Below, piece after piece: positions 1-6,804 of a stretch of DNA of 24,000 nt. The number at the start of each line of letters is the position of its first letter. Position 1 is the stretch's first letter. A program made the position numbers and the translations under genes. The stretch covers positions 7,767-31,766 of the forward strand of contig JAGOZV010000001.1 of the NCBI GenBank assembly GCA_018064165.1, written 5' to 3'. Source of the DNA: Candidatus Saccharimonadota bacterium. Its GTDB lineage: Bacteria > Patescibacteriota > Saccharimonadia > Saccharimonadales > Saccharimonadaceae. The notes beneath the pieces were generated by a model, which saw only the letters and a program-made list of their open reading frames with translations, made no database searches and was not told the DNA's origin.

Positions 1-510
1 CTGTACAAAATTTAATTCGTCTAAAGAATCTGCGTACATTGTGACATAAAAACCAAAGCGAAAGAATTTTTCTGCACCAAGTTGAATTTGGTCACGAAGT
101 TCTTCGGCATCCCCTATGGCCGCCTCAAGGGCAGGATCTCTTACCTGTCCTTTTTCTGCATTTATTGCCATAGAAGCTTCAAGTTGCGTAACTTTTTTAC
201 GTAAATTATTTAAAATTACCTGGCTTTCGACTGGATAAATATATAAACTTATATCTATTACTTCATCTATATTAACTAATGAACTAATCCATCCTGTGTA
301 TATTGAACGAGGATATCCAAAAACGTAAAGTGTGCGTCCATATTTTGTGCCTAATCTAAAATATGAAGAATGAATTTCAATACTACTTGGAGCAATTAAA
401 TCTCGTAAGGTTGTAACACCTTTAAGAAAAATTTCTTCCGTTCTAGCCTGCTCCTGAGCAAGCTGATCTCCCGCAATATCAGTTGCATTTTTTTTCTTTT
501 TTCTAGCCAT
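1..510 (-). CDS. virB4: VirB4/TrsE-like type IV secretion ATPase, first ~170 aa only (gene continues off the left edge)
   Basis: Absent from the ORF track because there is no stop in-window. The minus-strand ATG at 510..508 opens a frame that stays open to position 1: MARKKKKNATDIAGDQLAQEQARTEEIFLKGVTTLRDLIAPSSIEIHSSYFRLGTKYGRTLYVFGYPRSIYTGWISSLVNIDEVIDISLYIYPVESQVILNNLRKKVTQLEAS... The DLIAP, G.KYGRTL.V.GYPR and GW..L segments match what I recall from the pre-ATPase region of Gram-positive VirB4 proteins (Tn916 Orf16 / TrsE / PrgJ class). Walker motifs would lie outside the window. Confidence 0.7.
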   Translation of the reverse strand, partial: MARKKKKNATDIAGDQLAQEQARTEEIFLKGVTTLRDLIAPSSIEIHSSYFRLGTKYGRTLYVFGYPRSIYTGWISSLVNIDEVIDISLYIYPVESQVILNNLRKKVTQLEASMAINAEKGQVRDPALEAAIGDAEELRDQIQLGAEKFFRFGFYVTMYADSLDELNFVQ

Positions 511-1342
511 TTATCCCCCCATTGATTTGATTTGTGGATGGTATTGTTTCAGACGGATTAATAATAACTTCCTTTCTTACGTACGTAGAAGCCGCTTCAT
601 TGAAATTTCCTAGTGGTTCGCGTAAAGCCGTGTCGGGGTTATAGAAATTATAATATAATTCGCCTAACTCTTTTGTATTTAGAGGTACGCTTTTTACACC
701 AACGTGGTGTAAACCATTCATGATACTATCTACACGGTTACCGATTTCAGTTTTTGCTCTTTCGTAAGTTTGACTGTCAATTTTAACAACCGATGGTGGT
801 GCTTTTGAAAATAGAGTATTAAAGAAGCCTTTACCTTGATCTAACGGAGTATTAAGCTCTCCTAATGGAAAGTATGGTACTACAATAAAAAATGATTTAT
901 CCATAATGTTGGCTTGTTGTGACAATATATCTACAAAGTTTATATAATCGTCCATAAGTAAATTCAAGAGCATATTATCATTATTATTGCGAATGTTTAT
1001 TAATTTATCTAAATATGGTCCTATATCTACCCGTTGTGATCTTGCAAGAATTTGTATTGGATGAGTCAAGGAATTAAGGAAATTTTGGTAGCCATATTCT
1101 ATCGCCTCTTTTTCGGTTGGACTCATTAGATCAAAATTTATTGGTTGACAAGCTATTACGGCGCGAAATGTGCCGTCTGTCATAATAACCATATTTTCTC
1201 TTATCTCAGAAAGAAGCAAAGTATTTTGAGTTGAATTAGGATTTTTTGGAGCATCAGGGATATTTTGAGTGATATTATTAGAACCAGCTTCCAGTTGTTG
1301 GTTTGGAAACTGTTGGTTAGGTATTTGTTGATTTGGAGGCAC
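503..1342 (-). CDS. Stand-alone protein resembling the extreme N-terminal domain of VirB4-type ATPases, with a Q/N/P-rich leader
   Basis: ORF-track protein. The segment LLLSEIRENMVIMTDGTFRAVIACQPINFDLMSPTEKEAIEYGYQNFLNSLTHPIQILARSQRVD follows the DG....I.v.p.Nf.L.s..E......y..FLN.....iQi pattern of VirB4/TrsE N-termini. The start is GTG at 1342..1340, with AGGTGGG about 12 nt upstream, so the start is uncertain. The stop TAG (505..503) overlaps the ATG (510..508) of the downstream ATPase ORF within AATGGCTAG. The N-terminus has three PNQQ(I/F/L) repeats. Confidence 0.55.
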   Translation of the reverse strand: MPPNQQIPNQQFPNQQLEAGSNNITQNIPDAPKNPNSTQNTLLLSEIRENMVIMTDGTFRAVIACQPINFDLMSPTEKEAIEYGYQNFLNSLTHPIQILARSQRVDIGPYLDKLINIRNNNDNMLLNLLMDDYINFVDILSQQANIMDKSFFIVVPYFPLGELNTPLDQGKGFFNTLFSKAPPSVVKIDSQTYERAKTEIGNRVDSIMNGLHHVGVKSVPLNTKELGELYYNFYNPDTALREPLGNFNEAASTYVRKEVIINPSETIPSTNQINGGING

Positions 1343-1359
1343 GTTTATAAATTTCCCAC

Positions 1360-2358
1360 CTATCTTAAAGATATTATTACTTCATCTTCACCAAGATTAT
1401 TTTTCTCTTCTGAAATCCTTTTTGCTTGACTAGCTAAAGTTGCAATTGAAAAATCTTCTGGTGCATTTGTTGCAAGTTCTATTATATCAGCTGAAATGGT
1501 ATTTTGGATATCCTTATTTTCTGTTTCTACTTCTTTTACGATAGTCTTATTTATATCAATTGAAGTTTGTGTGGTTGACGTTGGTGATAGAACAGCTTGA
1601 TTCATTGTAGGAAATGGATTTATAACGACATTGCCTATTGGTTTTTCAACTGTGTTAATTAATGGTGTTTCAAGAGCAGGAACTGTGTAATTATCCTGAA
1701 TATTTGGGTAAACTAGTTTATCTACTGGTTGTTCGGTAATTGCAGGATATTGTGTGGGTGATTGTATATTTTTTAATACATCTTGTTTACGCTGAATAGC
1801 AGACTGTTCAAGCCTTTGGTCGATGCTTTGTCCAATAGAGTATTCGTCTGATAAAATATCAATTGAACTATTGGCCTCAAAATATATGTCAGGGTTTAAG
1901 CCATTGGAAATCTCAGGACCATGCGAAGACATTGCTCCTCTGGTAGCCCATCCTTTTGAATCTACTATTTGAGCCAAATAAGAAAATCTTCTTTCTGCCT
2001 CATCTTCAGATAAGTCTTTAGATAAGCTTACTTCTACAACTTTAGGAGCGGATATTTCTACTCTAGACTCAACCCCGTCTGGATCCCAAAGTCTCTTACG
2101 AGGTTTTACATAAAATGAAATAATCGCAGCTAAATAAGTCTCCATAGGTTGATCTTTACGAAGTGGTAACGCAAGAGCAGCAAAAAATAAAATGATAGGT
2201 GCTGGAATAATAGCTAAAATTGGCAATATTTGCCATAAAACAAAAGCTAAAAAACCCATAGCAGCGACAATTAGTAAATATATGAATTGTCTAAAAGTAA
2301 AAGGGCCGAGTAATTTATCTTCCGCCTCGACATCTTGTGGCACTTTATAAATAGCCAT
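1360..2358 (-). CDS. prgI: PrgI-family / VirB3-like T4SS membrane protein with a long low-complexity C-terminal extension
   Basis: The N-terminus MAIYKVPQDVEAEDKLLGPFTFRQFIYLLIVAAMGFLAFVLWQILPILAIIPAPIILFFAALALPLRKDQPMETYLAAIISFYVKPRKRLW matches the PrgI-family pattern: (V/I)P.d.e.edK..GplT.RQ followed by two TM helices. It sits directly upstream of the VirB4-like ORFs on the same strand. Confidence 0.65.
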   Translation of the reverse strand: MAIYKVPQDVEAEDKLLGPFTFRQFIYLLIVAAMGFLAFVLWQILPILAIIPAPIILFFAALALPLRKDQPMETYLAAIISFYVKPRKRLWDPDGVESRVEISAPKVVEVSLSKDLSEDEAERRFSYLAQIVDSKGWATRGAMSSHGPEISNGLNPDIYFEANSSIDILSDEYSIGQSIDQRLEQSAIQRKQDVLKNIQSPTQYPAITEQPVDKLVYPNIQDNYTVPALETPLINTVEKPIGNVVINPFPTMNQAVLSPTSTTQTSIDINKTIVKEVETENKDIQNTISADIIELATNAPEDFSIATLASQAKRISEEKNNLGEDEVIISLR

Positions 2359-2478
2359 ATAATTATTATATCATTAATGGATACGCTTTTCTTTACGAAG
2401 TTAAAGTTTAAAATTTTCTTGTTCTAATCAAGAATATATTGTATTCTTGTTGTATGAATAAGGTAGAAAAATAAAAAA

Positions 2479-2874
2479 ATGAAAAAAATCTTGCTCATTC
2501 TATCAAGTATATTCTTACTGTCTTTGGTGTCTGTGGCGTTTATTGGTACTTTTGTAAATGCCCAGAATAGTTGCGGAGGAATAGAAACTTCTATTATTTC
2601 TTGCGCTAACGATGGAGGAAGTACAGCAAATGTTAAAGATTCTGCTGTATGGCAAATATTAAGAGTTGCCATAAATATCTTAACAGGTGGAATAATGGTA
2701 GCCGCACTAGGTGGTCTAATATATGCTTCCTTTTTATATACTTCATCTGGTGCTAATCCAGAAACAAGAAAAAAGTCTATGACTATAATGACAAATATTG
2801 TTATTGGAATTGTAACCTATGCTTTAATGTGGGCACTTCTAAATTTTATTTTACCAGGAGGAATTGGACTATGA
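2479..2874 (+). CDS. VirB2/TrbC-like T4SS pilin paralog 1 (divergent)
   Basis: It has a signal peptide (MKKILLILSSIFLLSLVSVAFIGTFVNA|Q) and a short Cys-pair segment (NSCGGIETSIISCAND). Two hydrophobic helices are separated by the loop YTSSGANPETRKKS. It is the first gene of a same-strand run of paralogs, and its stop overlaps the next start (ATGA at 2871..2874). Confidence 0.6.
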   Translation: MKKILLILSSIFLLSLVSVAFIGTFVNAQNSCGGIETSIISCANDGGSTANVKDSAVWQILRVAINILTGGIMVAALGGLIYASFLYTSSGANPETRKKSMTIMTNIVIGIVTYALMWALLNFILPGGIGL

Positions 2875-6162: not shown

Positions 6163-6204
6163 TAGATTATCTGGTAAAATGTTGATTGTACTTAATACAC
6201 AAAT

Positions 6205-6294
6205 GGAGAGGTGACCGAGTGGTTGAAGGTAACGGTCTTGAAAACCGTCGTGCCGGCAACGGTACCGAGGGTTCGAATCCCTCCCTCTCCGCCA
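6205..6294 (+). tRNA. tRNA-Ser (anticodon UGA), CCA encoded
   Basis: Manual cloverleaf: GGAGAGG-TG-ACC-GAGTGGTTGAA-GGT-A-ACGGT-CT TGA AA-ACCGT, a long variable arm, GAGGG-TTCGAAT-CCCTC, CCTCTCC-G-CCA. The 6091..6306 minus ORF is its antisense artefact. Confidence 0.9.
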
Positions 6295-6311
6295 GAATAA
6301 ATACATAATAA

Positions 6312-6339
6312 AATAACCTGCAATTTGCAGGTTATTTTT
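6312..6339. terminator. Bidirectional terminator between tRNA-Ser(UGA) and the minus-strand pilin gene
   Basis: Hairpin AATAACCTGCA-ATT-TGCAGGTTATT, followed by TTT and preceded by an A-run. Confidence 0.8.
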
Positions 6340-6360
6340 GATTATTGAAATATATTTTTA

Positions 6361-6804
6361 CTACAGGTTACTCCAACCTGCACCGTTACCACTTGTTCCG
6401 GTACCTCCAACCCCTCCACTAGAGGATGATAATGTAGTTAGTAGAAAATTTATAATTGCATAAGATAGAATTGAAATAACTAAACCTACAATAGCGTATA
6501 AAATAGTGTTTTTAGCAGCTGTAACAGCACTAGAATTTCCACCAGAAACAACATATCTTAAACCGCCGTAAATGATCATTACAACGCTTAATGCTCCAAC
6601 AATATATAGAAGTGTATTAGCAACAGTTGTGAATATTCCGCCCGTACCGAATAGGTCTGTAGGCTGACCAGTTCCCTGTGCCGATTGTACTCCCTGTTCT
6701 ACAGAACCACCAACAAAAGCTAATGCACTAGGCTGATAAAGAAAACCTAGAACTGCTATAAGAGTGAACATAACAACAAATTTTGTGTAAAATGAATTTT
6801 TCAT
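6361..6804 (-). CDS. VirB2/TrbC-like T4SS pilin paralog 6 with a Gly/Ser-rich C-terminal tail
   Basis: Strong RBS (AGGAGAA 5 nt upstream). Signal peptide ...QPSALA|F. The core is LLYIVGALSVVMIIYGGLRYVVSGGNSSAVTAAKNTILYAIVGLVISILSYAIINFLL. It alone has an extra tail, TTLSSSSGGVGGTGTSGNGAGWSNL, not present in the other five. Confidence 0.7.
   Translation of the reverse strand: MKNSFYTKFVVMFTLIAVLGFLYQPSALAFVGGSVEQGVQSAQGTGQPTDLFGTGGIFTTVANTLLYIVGALSVVMIIYGGLRYVVSGGNSSAVTAAKNTILYAIVGLVISILSYAIINFLLTTLSSSSGGVGGTGTSGNGAGWSNL

What the first reader, a model, noticed from the sequence alone, without database searches (positions are those of the whole stretch)
1..6804. Type IV secretion-like locus with six VirB2-like pilin paralogs around a single VirB4/PrgI module
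A minus-strand operon (PrgI-like 1360..2358, VirB4 N-domain ORF 503..1342, VirB4-like ATPase 510..1 continuing off-window) faces a plus-strand run of five small secreted proteins (2479..4871). A sixth paralog lies at 6361..6804 on the other strand. All six have a cleavable-looking signal peptide, then a short hypervariable segment, then helix-loop-helix. The four closest paralogs share IYGG(I/L)RY(T/V)(T/V)SGGN...VTAAKN(T/S).IY(S/A)IVGLV, which is the VirB2/TrbC topology. Classical T4SSs encode one VirB2, so six paralogs with one conserved membrane core and unrelated exposed segments suggest a repertoire of alternative surface or filament subunits. The first three have Cys pairs; the last three have none and are Ser/Thr/Gly-rich. 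In an epibiotic or parasitic small-genome bacterium such a repertoire could matter for host contact. ComF (DNA uptake) lies in the same neighbourhood.
Basis: partly seen in the sequence, partly recalled or inferred. Interest (0 to 1): 0.65.

Follow-up and report, generated by a model that had tools for sequence, protein, structure and literature searches.

The report
Saccharibacterial T4SS pilin gene array
This is the chromosomal type IV secretion locus of a sewage-associated Saccharibacteria (CPR/Patescibacteria) bacterium, with six VirB2-like pilin genes; the arrangement is real but already published for this group, where it is essential for growth on host bacteria.

Summary
Window 1-6804 holds prgI-trsD-virB4 on the minus strand. 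Facing it is a five-gene operon of PF18895 "T4SS_pilin" proteins, and a sixth pilin lies beyond hsp20 and comF. Gene 2 carries two pilin domains, so there are seven domains in six genes.

The organism is a Saccharibacteria lineage, and the locus sits next to recF-dnaN-dnaA. This system is already in the literature. Wang 2023 showed that the pilins are essential in S. epibionticum. Quinonero-Coronel 2025 reported 441 arrays of 2-11 pilins, TrsD and proximity to dnaA. A 2025 FEMS review cites "6 VirB2-like pilins".

My additions are incremental:
- The paralogs are position-specific, ancient orthogroups conserved across genera. W1 comes first, the double-hairpin W2 second (fused or split), and W6 is always the isolated gene. 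Their exposed motifs are conserved. This argues for a fixed heteromeric set rather than a free repertoire of alternatives.
- W4 and W5 share a near-identical 101-nt core, and some strains carry a W4/W5 chimera, giving a four-gene array.
- This lineage lacks the VirB6 gene that lies directly upstream of prgI in 50 of 54 related species. I could not locate it.

Homology to classical VirB2 could not be shown by profile or fold comparison. Verdict: real, ordinary for Saccharibacteria, and low in novelty.

The parts
1..510 (-). N-terminal 170 codons of virB4, a 625-aa ATPase that continues off the window
   Evidence: NCBIfam VirB4-like CD1110 family E 1e-16. Identical to the first 170 aa of the full gene on contig L001, which has P-loop_TraG, AAA_10 and DUF87 domains and Walker A and B motifs.
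503..1342 (-). trsD-like gene (279 aa), a homolog of the VirB4 N-domain; it overlaps the virB4 start by 8 nt
   Evidence: NF041427 TrsD E 2.5e-7 and VirB4_plasma positions 99-235. Precomputed PF26593 TraC-like. A separate ORF in every related locus where that stretch is present. 100% identical across six strains.
1360..2358 (-). prgI (VirB3-like membrane anchor): N-terminal PrgI domain 5-90 plus a ~240-aa low-complexity tail
   Evidence: PF12666 E 1.1e-13. Conserved upstream of trsD in nearly all related loci that include that stretch.
2359..2478 (.). 120-bp divergent intergenic region; in most relatives VirB6 and 1-2 further genes lie between the pilin array and prgI
   Evidence: Sequence read. 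VirB6 sits directly upstream of PrgI in 50 of 54 species loci but not here.
2479..2874 (+). Pilin W1 (131 aa), first gene of the array, with the Cys-loop motif CGGIETSIISC and a C-terminal LPGG
   Evidence: PF18895 E 1.8e-5. NF045849 E 1.4e-7. In related genera, whenever the first gene of the array is a single-domain pilin, it matches W1 best; the Nanosyncoccus-like clade lacks a W1 ortholog.
2871..3599 (+). Pilin W2 (242 aa), a tandem double hairpin (signal peptide, Cys loop, hairpin A, linker, hairpin B); start ATG 2871 is preceded by AGGAGG
   Evidence: PF18895 E 4e-16 with two stretches. Hydropathy shows four TM segments plus a signal peptide. Fused in some genera and split into 2a and 2b genes in others.
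3615..3992 (+). Pilin W3 (125 aa), with a Cys pair in the exposed segment
   Evidence: PF18895 E 2.9e-14. The third position in related arrays mostly matches W3 best.
4023..4415 (+). Pilin W4 (130 aa), Cys-free with a Ser/Thr-rich exposed segment
   Evidence: PF18895 E 2e-11. AF2 hairpin model. Shares a 72-nt exact core (101 nt with one mismatch) with W5.
4473..4871 (+). Pilin W5 (132 aa), a recent paralog of W4
   Evidence: PF18895 E 9e-12. W4/W5 chimeric single gene in contigs L087-L089.
4883..4922 (+). Strong intrinsic terminator that closes the W1-W5 operon
   Evidence: 18-bp perfect stem followed by a T run.
4933..5406 (-). hsp20; a conserved syntenic neighbour with no demonstrated functional link
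   Evidence: PF00011 E 1e-18. Synteny with the array across genera.
5515..6162 (+). comF-family phosphoribosyltransferase; a conserved syntenic neighbour between the array and W6
   Evidence: TIGR00201 E 2e-26 and PF00156. Synteny across genera.
6310..6338 (.). Bidirectional terminator hairpin downstream of W6
   Evidence: 13-bp stem with T runs on both strands.
6361..6804 (-). Pilin W6 (147 aa), monocistronic, flanked by two tRNA-Ser genes, with a Gly-rich C-terminal tail ending AGWSNL
   Evidence: PF18895 E 2.6e-8. The isolated pilin beyond comF matches W6 best in every related locus that has one. It is the pilin most conserved against sister lineage L007 (73%). Conserved N- and C-terminal motifs.

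Best explanation
This is the chromosomal, origin-proximal type IV secretion system that is typical of Saccharibacteria. It derives from the monoderm (MPF_FATA-type) conjugation machinery and has lost the DNA-transfer functions.

The minus-strand operon prgI-trsD-virB4 encodes the VirB3-like membrane anchor, a protein resembling the VirB4 N-domain, and the VirB4 ATPase that powers assembly. The divergent W1-W5 operon and the monocistronic W6 gene encode Sec-exported proteins.

Inferred steps: after signal-peptide cleavage, each pilin sits in the membrane as a two-helix hairpin. The short basic loop (R...TSGGN..VTAAKN) faces the cytoplasm and both ends face outside. The VirB4 machine then extracts and polymerises these subunits into a surface filament or conduit that contacts the host bacterium.

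The six genes are not interchangeable variants. They fall into at least four ancient subunit classes:
- W1, with a CGGxxTSIIxC loop.
- W2, a covalently fused pair of hairpins.
- W3.
- The W4/W5/W6 class.

Gene order and exposed motifs of these classes are conserved across most of the related genera sampled. The likeliest arrangement is therefore a heteromeric assembly, with one abundant subunit plus specialised minor subunits. Inferred: W6 or W4/W5 is the abundant subunit, and the Cys-loop proteins W1-W3 are the minor ones. W4 and W5 are a young duplicate pair that still exchange sequence, and some strains have collapsed them into a single gene.

Shown here: gene identities, topology pattern, operon structure, orthology by position, and synteny. 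Shown by others: the cluster and its pilins are essential in S. epibionticum. Inferred: filament formation, the major and minor roles, and the substrate.
For: - Family assignments.
- Saccharibacteria origin, with VirB4 76-91% identical in more than 500 genomes.
- Conserved synteny [W6] comF hsp20 [array] | virB6 prgI trsD virB4 | recF dnaN.
- Hairpin model with pLDDT above 90 and hydropathy profiles.
- SD sequences before every pilin gene, short or overlapping intergenic gaps, and terminators after W5 and W6.
- Position-specific best hits: wherever the first gene of the array is a single-domain pilin it matches W1 best, every double-domain gene matches W2, and every isolated gene matches W6.
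- Conserved exposed motifs within orthogroups.
- Cys pair conserved at positions 1-3 in most related arrays.
- W4/W5 near-identical core and chimeric alleles in three independent assemblies.
- Literature: the pilins and T4SS genes are essential, and no relaxase or coupling protein lies in the cluster. Arrays of 2-11 pilins, TrsD and dnaA proximity are reported. 'Potential to elaborate conjugative pili'.
Against: - No filament made of these proteins has been seen, in the papers I read or here.
- Homology to structurally solved VirB2/TraA pilins was not detectable.
- VirB6 is absent from the contigs that cover the window and about 10 kb on each side. It is essential in S. epibionticum and sits next to prgI in 50 of 54 related species.
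- The major/minor assignment rests only on conservation and gene organisation.
- Related short hairpin proteins occur in Firmicute conjugation clusters that are thought to lack pili.
- The W1 class is missing in one clade, so the subunit set is not universal.
Confidence: 0.65

Rival explanations
1. Variant repertoire: the paralogs are alternative versions of one surface subunit. They would be swapped or co-expressed to match different host strains or to evade host defences, as proposed for multi-VirB2 Bartonella and Anaplasma.
For: Paralogs share a conserved core but differ in their exposed segments. Identity within published arrays averages about 25%, and the survey authors suggest adaptation to different host strains. 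The W4/W5 class shows lineage-specific duplications, gene conversion and copy-number change.
Against: W1, W2 and W6 are one-to-one orthogroups that keep the same gene position in most of the related genera sampled, and their exposed motifs are conserved. Divergence between the window and L007 is no greater for the pilins (48-73% identity) than for ComF or the 225-aa neighbour (about 50%). Within-species variation in W4 is not concentrated in the exposed segment. No silent cassettes or invertible promoters were seen.
Confidence: 0.2
2. Not a pilus: the hairpin proteins are integral membrane or cell-wall-spanning parts of the translocation channel or stalk, like the small two-TM proteins in Gram-positive conjugation systems. 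No extended filament is built.
For: A 72-aa hairpin protein without a signal peptide, in an Enterococcus pLS20/CD1115-type conjugation cluster, hits PF18895 at E 1.7e-5. The NCBIfam model for the Mycoplasma ICE 'pilin-like' protein hits the window pilins at E 5e-10 to 3e-5, and W6 at 2.5e-3. No significant similarity to solved pilus subunits was found. When W2b is a separate gene it has no signal peptide.
Against: Six of the seven domains are preceded by a signal peptide and an exposed, often disulfide-bonded segment, which suits a surface structure. Structure-based annotation in S. epibionticum calls them pilins. The large number of paralogs is unusual for channel parts.
Confidence: 0.2
3. 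Mobile-element conjugation module: the cluster belongs to an ICE or plasmid remnant and transfers DNA.
For: VirB4, PrgI and TrsD are of conjugative ancestry. A serine-recombinase element lies about 1 kb beyond W6.
Against: The locus sits between comF/hsp20 and recF-dnaN-dnaA in conserved synteny across genera. No relaxase or coupling protein lies within the sequence examined. The integrase element is variable between strains and is separate from the T4SS genes. Relaxases are rare across the phylum.
Confidence: 0.03
4. Decaying system: loss of the adjacent virB6 means the T4SS in this lineage is no longer functional.
For: VirB6 and the gene before it are missing between the array and prgI in the window, in L001-L007 and in L087. 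They are present in 50 of 54 other species. No candidate for this lineage was found among the VirB6 homologs I looked up.
Against: All remaining genes are intact. TrsD is 100% identical and the other locus genes compared (PrgI, the six pilins, Hsp20, ComF) are 95-100% identical among strains. VirB4 is 89% identical to the sister lineage L007, which has the same arrangement, so the arrangement is old and under purifying selection. Another lineage, L030, also separates prgI-trsD-virB4 from VirB6 and the pilins, so dispersal does occur.
Confidence: 0.05

Closest known systems
T4SS cluster SEML1_0006-0019 of Ca. Southlakia epibionticum ML1 (Wang et al. 2023, Cell; PMC10633639)
   Same: A Saccharibacteria chromosomal T4SS near the replication origin. 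[quoted passage not shown]
   Different: In Se the cluster includes an essential VirB6, and peptidase and lysozyme genes follow virB4. Here VirB6 is absent from the locus and recF follows virB4. Essentiality has not been tested for this organism.
Patescibacteria T4SS and 'VirB2 arrays' (Quinonero-Coronel et al. 2025, Microb Genom; PMC12102498)
   Same: The survey describes VirB4, TrsD and PrgI, proximity to dnaA/dnaN, and 441 arrays of 2-11 PF18895/PF04956 pilin genes that are most abundant in Saccharimonadia and Microgenomatia, with about 25% identity within arrays. This window is an instance of that description.
   Different: The survey proposes that the variety helps adaptation to different hosts. 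Here the paralogs resolve into position-specific orthogroups, with a second gene that is fused or split. This locus lacks the adjacent VirB6.
MPF_FATA conjugative T4SSs of monoderms (pCF10 PrgI/PrgJ, pGO1/pSK41 TrsC/TrsD/TrsE, CTn2 CD1110, Mycoplasma ICE Mbov_0395/0397)
   Same: PrgI, TrsD and VirB4 match these models. The pilins hit the Mycoplasma ICE 'Mbov_0395 pilin-like' model at E 5e-10 to 3e-5, with W6 at 2.5e-3. A PF18895-like hairpin lies in an Enterococcus conjugation cluster.
   Different: There is no relaxase, T4CP, adhesin or VirB1-like hydrolase in the locus. The pilin-like gene is multiplied sixfold and has gained a signal peptide and exposed segments. All scores fall below the curated NCBIfam cut-offs.
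VirB2/TrbC pilins of diderm T4SSs (A. tumefaciens T-pilus, RP4 TrbC, F TraA; Pfam PF04956)
   Same: The architecture matches: signal peptide, short exposed N-terminus, two hydrophobic helices and a short basic loop.
   Different: Sequence homology is not demonstrable. The best TrbC hit has E 0.038, and hhalign gives probability 0.5%. Classical systems encode one VirB2 next to VirB3 and a VirB5 tip protein, and no VirB5 is present here.
Multi-copy VirB2 in Bartonella, Anaplasma and Rickettsia T4SSs
   Same: Several divergent VirB2 paralogs serve one machine. The 2025 survey cites them as the analogy.
   Different: Those are true PF04956 members in diderm intracellular pathogens and are thought to give antigenic variation. 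Here the orthogroups are stable across genera.

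Membership tests
Pfam PF18895 T4SS_pilin | Score at or above the gathering threshold (26.6 bits) over the ~71-residue helix-loop-helix profile | tested here: met
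   W2 59.2, W3 53.3, W5 45.3, W4 44.3 and W6 34.2 bits. W1 scores 25.1 bits, just below threshold, but is linked through NF045849 (E 1.4e-7) and by cross-hits of its ortholog HMM to the other pilins.
VirB2/TrbC pilins (Pfam PF04956; MPF_T VirB2) | Detectable sequence homology to bona fide VirB2/TrbC | tested here: not met
   The best PF04956 hit has E 0.038 and 14.6 bits against a cut-off of 27.9. hhalign of a 70-sequence pilin profile against 8 annotated VirB2/TrbC proteins gives probability 0.5% and E 0.11. Some database homologs carry weak precomputed PF04956 hits.
VirB2/TrbC pilins | Signal peptide, two TM helices and a short cytoplasmic loop (pilin topology) | tested here: met
   Hydropathy and -3/-1 sites and the AF2 model H58-89/H95-128 with pLDDT above 90. 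Cleavage itself is only predicted by eye.
VirB2/TrbC pilins | Fold match to solved conjugative pilus subunits | tested here: inconclusive
   Foldseek against the PDB finds no hit with E below 0.9. The Aeropyrum conjugation pilus 8dfu ranks 40th (TM 0.61 normalised to the target, rmsd 3.2 over 67 columns), among many unrelated helical hairpins. The PDB sequence-profile search found nothing relevant.
VirB2/TrbC pilins | Polymerises into an extracellular T4SS-dependent filament | not testable with these tools
   This needs EM, cryo-ET or surface shearing. The reviews I read describe it only as a possibility.
VirB4 ATPase (T4SS signature protein) | VirB4/TraG-type P-loop domain with Walker A and B motifs | tested here: met
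   PF19044 E 8e-28, PF12846 E 9e-13 and PF01935 E 2e-8 on the full 625-aa protein from L001, whose first 170 aa equal the window's. Motifs SGAGKS and MLIVDE are present.
PrgI / VirB3-like | PF12666 match above threshold, with the gene adjacent to virB4 | tested here: met
   51.9 bits against a cut-off of 27. The gene order prgI-trsD-virB4 is conserved wherever the related loci include those genes.
TrsD (homolog of the VirB4 N-domain, pGO1 subclass) | Match to the TrsD model, as a separate gene immediately upstream of virB4 | tested here: inconclusive
   NF041427 gives E 2.5e-7 but only 30.7 bits against a cut-off of 200. Precomputed PF26593 TraC-like; my own Pfam scan gave no hit at E 0.001 or better. 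Gene position and separateness are conserved.
Patescibacteria T4SS as described in 2023-2025 papers | VirB4, TrsD, PrgI and a VirB2-like array; chromosomal near dnaA; no relaxase or T4CP in the cluster | tested here: met
   matched against the descriptions read.
Patescibacteria T4SS as described in 2023-2025 papers | VirB6 (TrbL-type polytopic protein) in the cluster | tested here: not met
   No VirB6 HMM hit in the window, L001, L003 or L007, and no TrbL family in the flanking contigs. It is present directly upstream of prgI in 50 of 54 related species loci. Whether it lies elsewhere in this genome is unknown.
Conjugative element (ICE or plasmid) | Relaxase and type IV coupling protein associated with the MPF genes | tested here: not met
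   None lies within the sequence covered by the window and its flanking contigs.

The most novel reading that the evidence does not exclude
The six pilin genes may encode an obligate heteromeric structure built from at least four ancient, non-interchangeable subunit classes. One of these, W2, is a covalently fused double hairpin. Such a structure would be a multi-pilin T4SS filament or stalk, comparable to the major-plus-minor pilin logic of type IV pili and T2SS pseudopili, and no described T4SS works this way. In this lineage it would operate with prgI-trsD-virB4 uncoupled from, or even without, VirB6.
Probability: 0.4. Interest if true: 0.55.

Novelty: already known. Interest (0 to 1): 0.25.

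Why it matters
Saccharibacteria and other CPR bacteria live attached to host bacteria. In the one genetically tractable species, this T4SS and its pilins are essential for that lifestyle, yet its substrate and structure are unknown. It would also be the first pilus-forming T4SS in a monoderm. The window adds no new kind of system.

The comparative results do sharpen the open question in three ways:
- The pilins behave as a fixed set of specialised subunits rather than a variable repertoire. Structural and genetic work should therefore ask what each class does, and which one is the major subunit.
- W4 and W5 show ongoing recombination.
- A lineage without a clustered VirB6 offers a natural test of which parts of the machine are indispensable.

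Tried and rejected
- **PDB sequence search.** A profile of 70 pilins found only chance hits.
- **Foldseek against the PDB.** The W4 model matched only generic helical hairpins, which is uninformative.
- **hhalign against VirB2/TrbC.** I compared the pilin profile with eight annotated VirB2/TrbC proteins taken from plasmid records. The result was not significant.
- **Looking for this lineage's VirB6.**
  - A homolog search with the VirB6 of relative L010 and four context look-ups all landed in other lineages with the standard virB6-prgI context.
  - Extending the window's right flank by 10 kb showed only peptidoglycan genes.
- **att repeats for the integrase element.** None were found.
- **An apparent 155-bp insertion between W3 and W4 in L005.** It is a run of N, that is a scaffold gap.
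- **NCBI accessions for near-identical W4 proteins.** None were recorded.
- **Frameshifted VirB4.** I considered that the two 'VirB4 pieces' were one frameshifted gene. I rejected this because TrsD is a separate conserved gene in every relative where that stretch is present and in the literature.
- **Fast-evolving pilins.** I considered that the pilins evolve exceptionally fast. I rejected this because ComF and a neighbouring protein diverge just as much.

Full report
**Observation**

Six proteins match Pfam PF18895 T4SS_pilin:

| Gene | Coordinates | E-value | Note |
|---|---|---|---|
| W1 | 2479-2874 | 1.8e-5 | 25.1 bits, just below the 26.6-bit threshold |
| W2 | 2871-3599 | 4e-16 | two matched stretches |
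| W3 | 3615-3992 | 3e-14 | |
| W4 | 4023-4415 | 2e-11 | |
| W5 | 4473-4871 | 9e-12 | |
| W6 | 6361-6804, minus strand | 3e-8 | |

- The pilins also hit the NCBIfam model for the Mycoplasma-ICE 'Mbov_0395 pilin-like conjugal transfer protein'. E-values run from 5e-10 to 3e-5, with W6 at 2.5e-3, all below the curated cut-off.
- 1360-2358 on the minus strand is PrgI (E 1e-13).
- 503-1342 on the minus strand matches TrsD and the N-terminal part of VirB4 models.
- 1-510 on the minus strand is the start of a 625-aa VirB4. The full protein was recovered from identical metagenome contigs. It has P-loop_TraG, AAA_10 and DUF87 domains and Walker motifs.
- Hydropathy shows a signal-peptide-like segment ending in a small-x-small site, then a linker, then two TM helices in each protein. 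W2 has four TM helices.
- The AlphaFold2 model of W4, built from a 115-sequence alignment, gives a confident hairpin (58-89/95-128, pLDDT above 90). A disordered exposed segment precedes it.
- The Cys pattern is as described: two Cys in each of W1-W3 and none in W4-W6.

One addition is that W2 is a tandem double hairpin, which gives seven domains in six genes.

**Organism and context**

- VirB4 finds more than 500 relatives in GTDB species genomes. The 80 best are 76-91% identical, and nearly all are labelled Saccharibacteria or Saccharimonadales.
- The same locus occurs on many ENA contigs whose names point to sewage surveys.
- Beyond virB4 lie recF, dnaN, dnaA, rnpA and yidC, so the locus is chromosomal and next to the replication origin.
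- Related species share the synteny [isolated pilin] comF hsp20 [pilin array] | (1-2 unknown genes) virB6 prgI trsD virB4 | recF dnaN.

**Operon structure**

- W1 and W2 overlap by 4 nt. The remaining gaps are 15, 30 and 57 nt.
- Every pilin gene has an SD-like sequence.
- A perfect 18-bp terminator follows W5, and a bidirectional terminator follows W6.
- W1-W5 are therefore one operon, divergent from prgI across 120 bp. W6 is monocistronic between two tRNA-Ser genes.

**What is already known**

- Wang et al. 2023 (PMC10633639) identified the T4SS cluster SEML1_0006-0019 in Ca. Southlakia epibionticum. [quoted passage not shown] It has no recognisable coupling or relaxase proteins.
- Quinonero-Coronel et al. 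2025 (PMC12102498) surveyed 3,035 Patescibacteria genomes. They report a VirB4 clade related to MPF_FATA, 2,272 TrsD homologs, PrgI/VirB3, VirB6 and proximity to dnaA/dnaN. [quoted passage not shown] They draw an analogy to Bartonella and Anaplasma.

**What the comparison adds**

1. **Orthology by position.** I scanned the 80 related loci with an HMM built from the window's pilin cores, then matched each hit back to the six window proteins.
   - Wherever the first gene of the array is a single-domain pilin, it matches W1 best, by a wide margin (about 100 bits against 50 or fewer).
   - Every double-domain gene matches W2. In other genera this position is held by two genes: 2a (about 145 aa, with signal peptide and Cys loop) and 2b (about 97 aa, without a signal peptide).
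   - The isolated gene beyond comF always matches W6.
   - Later array positions match W3, and then W4, W5 or W6, with lineage-specific duplications.
   - Exposed segments are conserved within orthogroups: W1 has A|xxCGGVxTSIIxC and a C-terminal IPGG(V/L)F; W2a has C..LG(F/I)PxWYRGLT..C; W6 has EQGVQAAxGxGQPxxLFG and, in a subset, a Gly-rich tail ending G(W/F/Y)(S/T)N(L/V).
   - One clade (Nanosyncoccus-like) lacks W1.
   - This pattern fits a fixed set of specialised subunits better than a repertoire of alternatives.

2. **Rate of divergence.** Against the sister lineage L007 the identities are VirB4 89%, Hsp20 85%, W6 73%, TrsD 72%, PrgI 60%, W4 60%, W5 57%, W1 and W2 53%, ComF 50% and W3 48%. 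The pilins are not exceptionally fast-evolving.

3. **W4/W5 dynamics.** W4 and W5 share a 72-nt exact match (101 nt with one mismatch) inside otherwise diverged genes.
   - About a quarter of 120 near-identical W4 database variants carry W5-type residues through helix 2.
   - Contigs from three separate samples have a single W4/W5 chimera and therefore a four-gene array.
   - I read this as gene conversion plus unequal crossover. Assembly artefact cannot be fully excluded without reads.

4. **VirB6.** VirB6 lies directly upstream of prgI in 50 of 54 species loci that have enough upstream sequence.
   - The exceptions are the window's sister L007, L030, L024 (where it is inverted) and L069 (where there is a gap).
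   - The window lineage has only 120 bp at that position.
   - No VirB6 or VirD4 appears in the contigs that extend about 10 kb past each end of the window.
   - Targeted look-ups did not find this lineage's copy.
   - L030 shows that prgI-trsD-virB4 can stand apart from VirB6 and the pilins. Relocation is therefore the most likely explanation.

**Relationship to VirB2**

- Membership of PF18895 is met.
- Homology to classical VirB2/TrbC is not shown. The best PF04956 hit has E 0.038. hhalign against eight annotated VirB2/TrbC proteins gives probability 0.5%. The PDB profile search was empty. Foldseek returned only generic hairpins, with the Aeropyrum conjugation pilus at rank 40.
- The pilins do hit the Mycoplasma ICE pilin-like model.
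- A 72-aa hairpin in an Enterococcus pLS20/CD1115-type conjugation cluster hits PF18895 at E 1.7e-5.
- This hints that the hairpin protein came with the monoderm machinery and was not borrowed from diderm systems. It remains a lead, not a result.

**Mechanism**

- Shown: gene identities, topology pattern, operon layout, and conservation.
- Shown by others: essentiality of the cluster and its pilins in a relative.
- Inferred:
  - Sec export and signal-peptide cleavage.
  - Insertion as hairpins with the basic loop inside.
  - VirB4-driven extraction and polymerisation into a surface filament or conduit toward the host.
  - W1-W3 (the Cys-loop proteins) as specialised minor subunits, and one of the W4/W5/W6 class as the bulk subunit.
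  - Protein or other non-conjugative transport, since no relaxase or coupling protein is present.
- Rivals: a variant repertoire, membrane-embedded channel parts with no filament, a conjugative element, and a decaying system. Each is weighed in the rival explanations section.

**Verdict**

The feature is real and correctly recognised in outline. It is ordinary for Saccharibacteria and already published. The added details are incremental: position-specific orthogroups, the fused or split double hairpin, W4/W5 recombination, and the missing adjacent VirB6.

Noticed in passing
window 7851-14300: An integrated element sits at tRNA-Arg (7851-7927). It carries a large serine recombinase (7862-9592, minus strand, whose ORF end overlaps the tRNA), an AAA_25 primase/helicase-like protein (9668-10708, minus), a small-terminase-like HTH protein (11877-12200), a SHOCT protein (13157-13801) and small unknown genes. 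Other strains of the same species carry different recombinases and cargo at the same site (L001, L002, L004), which suggests an integration hot spot. No att repeats were found.
   Followed up: partly
window 4209-4399 and 4659-4849; L087 3879-4274, L088, L089: W4 and W5 share a 72-nt exact stretch (101 nt with one mismatch) in their cores. Contigs from three samples carry a single W4/W5 chimeric gene, giving a four-gene array. This looks like gene conversion and unequal crossover between tandem pilin genes. Read-level confirmation is needed.
   Followed up: partly
window 2359-2478 versus L013 2690-8013 and 49 other loci: The VirB6 (TrbL-type, 840-1340 aa) gene and the 300-390-aa unknown gene that separate the pilin array from prgI in most Saccharibacteria are absent in this lineage and its sister L007. 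Their location in this genome, if any, was not found.
   Followed up: partly
window 2871-3599; L010 2468-3192, L013 1534-2325 and others: The second array gene is a fused double hairpin in some genera. In others it is split into two adjacent genes: 2a, with a signal peptide and a Cys loop, and 2b, about 97 aa with no signal peptide.
   Followed up: yes
window 6361-6804 (W6) and its orthologs in L007, L011, L015, L026, L028, L048: W6-type pilins end in a Gly-rich tail with a conserved terminal motif G(W/F/Y)(S/T)N(L/V) (AGWSNL here). W1-type pilins end in IPGG(V/L)F. These could be processing or recognition signals. Function unknown.
   Followed up: no
L100 7007-7225 (Enterococcus sp. LX10 plasmid NZ_CP092785): A 72-aa hypothetical protein lies in a Gram-positive conjugation cluster with a glucosaminidase, a CD1115-family VirD4 and a pLS20_p028-family protein. 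It hits PF18895 at E 1.7e-5 and has no signal peptide. PF18895-like hairpins may therefore be native to monoderm T4SSs.
   Followed up: partly
L030 1-12000: In another Saccharimonadales genome, prgI-trsD-virB4 has neither VirB6 nor pilins within 8 kb. Upstream lie a type IV pilin-like (N_methyl) gene, a PRTase, HIT and ValRS. T4SS genes can therefore be dispersed in this group.
   Followed up: partly
window 2359-2380, minus strand: A TATAAT box ends 7 nt before the prgI ATG and there is no SD sequence, so the prgI-trsD-virB4 transcript may be leaderless.
   Followed up: no
window 6205-6294 and 6881-6973: Two tRNA-Ser genes (anticodons TGA and GCT) bracket the W6 pilin gene. The 71-aa ORF at 6091-6306 listed by the ORF finder is antisense to the first tRNA and is spurious.
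   Followed up: no
window ~21850-24000 (runs off the end): A secreted protein of about 920 aa with a GDSL/SGNH lipase domain. Peptidoglycan genes (Mur ligases, FemAB) follow it in the longer contigs L102-L104.
   Followed up: no
L005 3876-4060: The apparent 155-bp insertion between W3 and W4 in one contig is a run of N (a scaffold gap). It shows that this repeated array is hard to assemble.
   Followed up: yes
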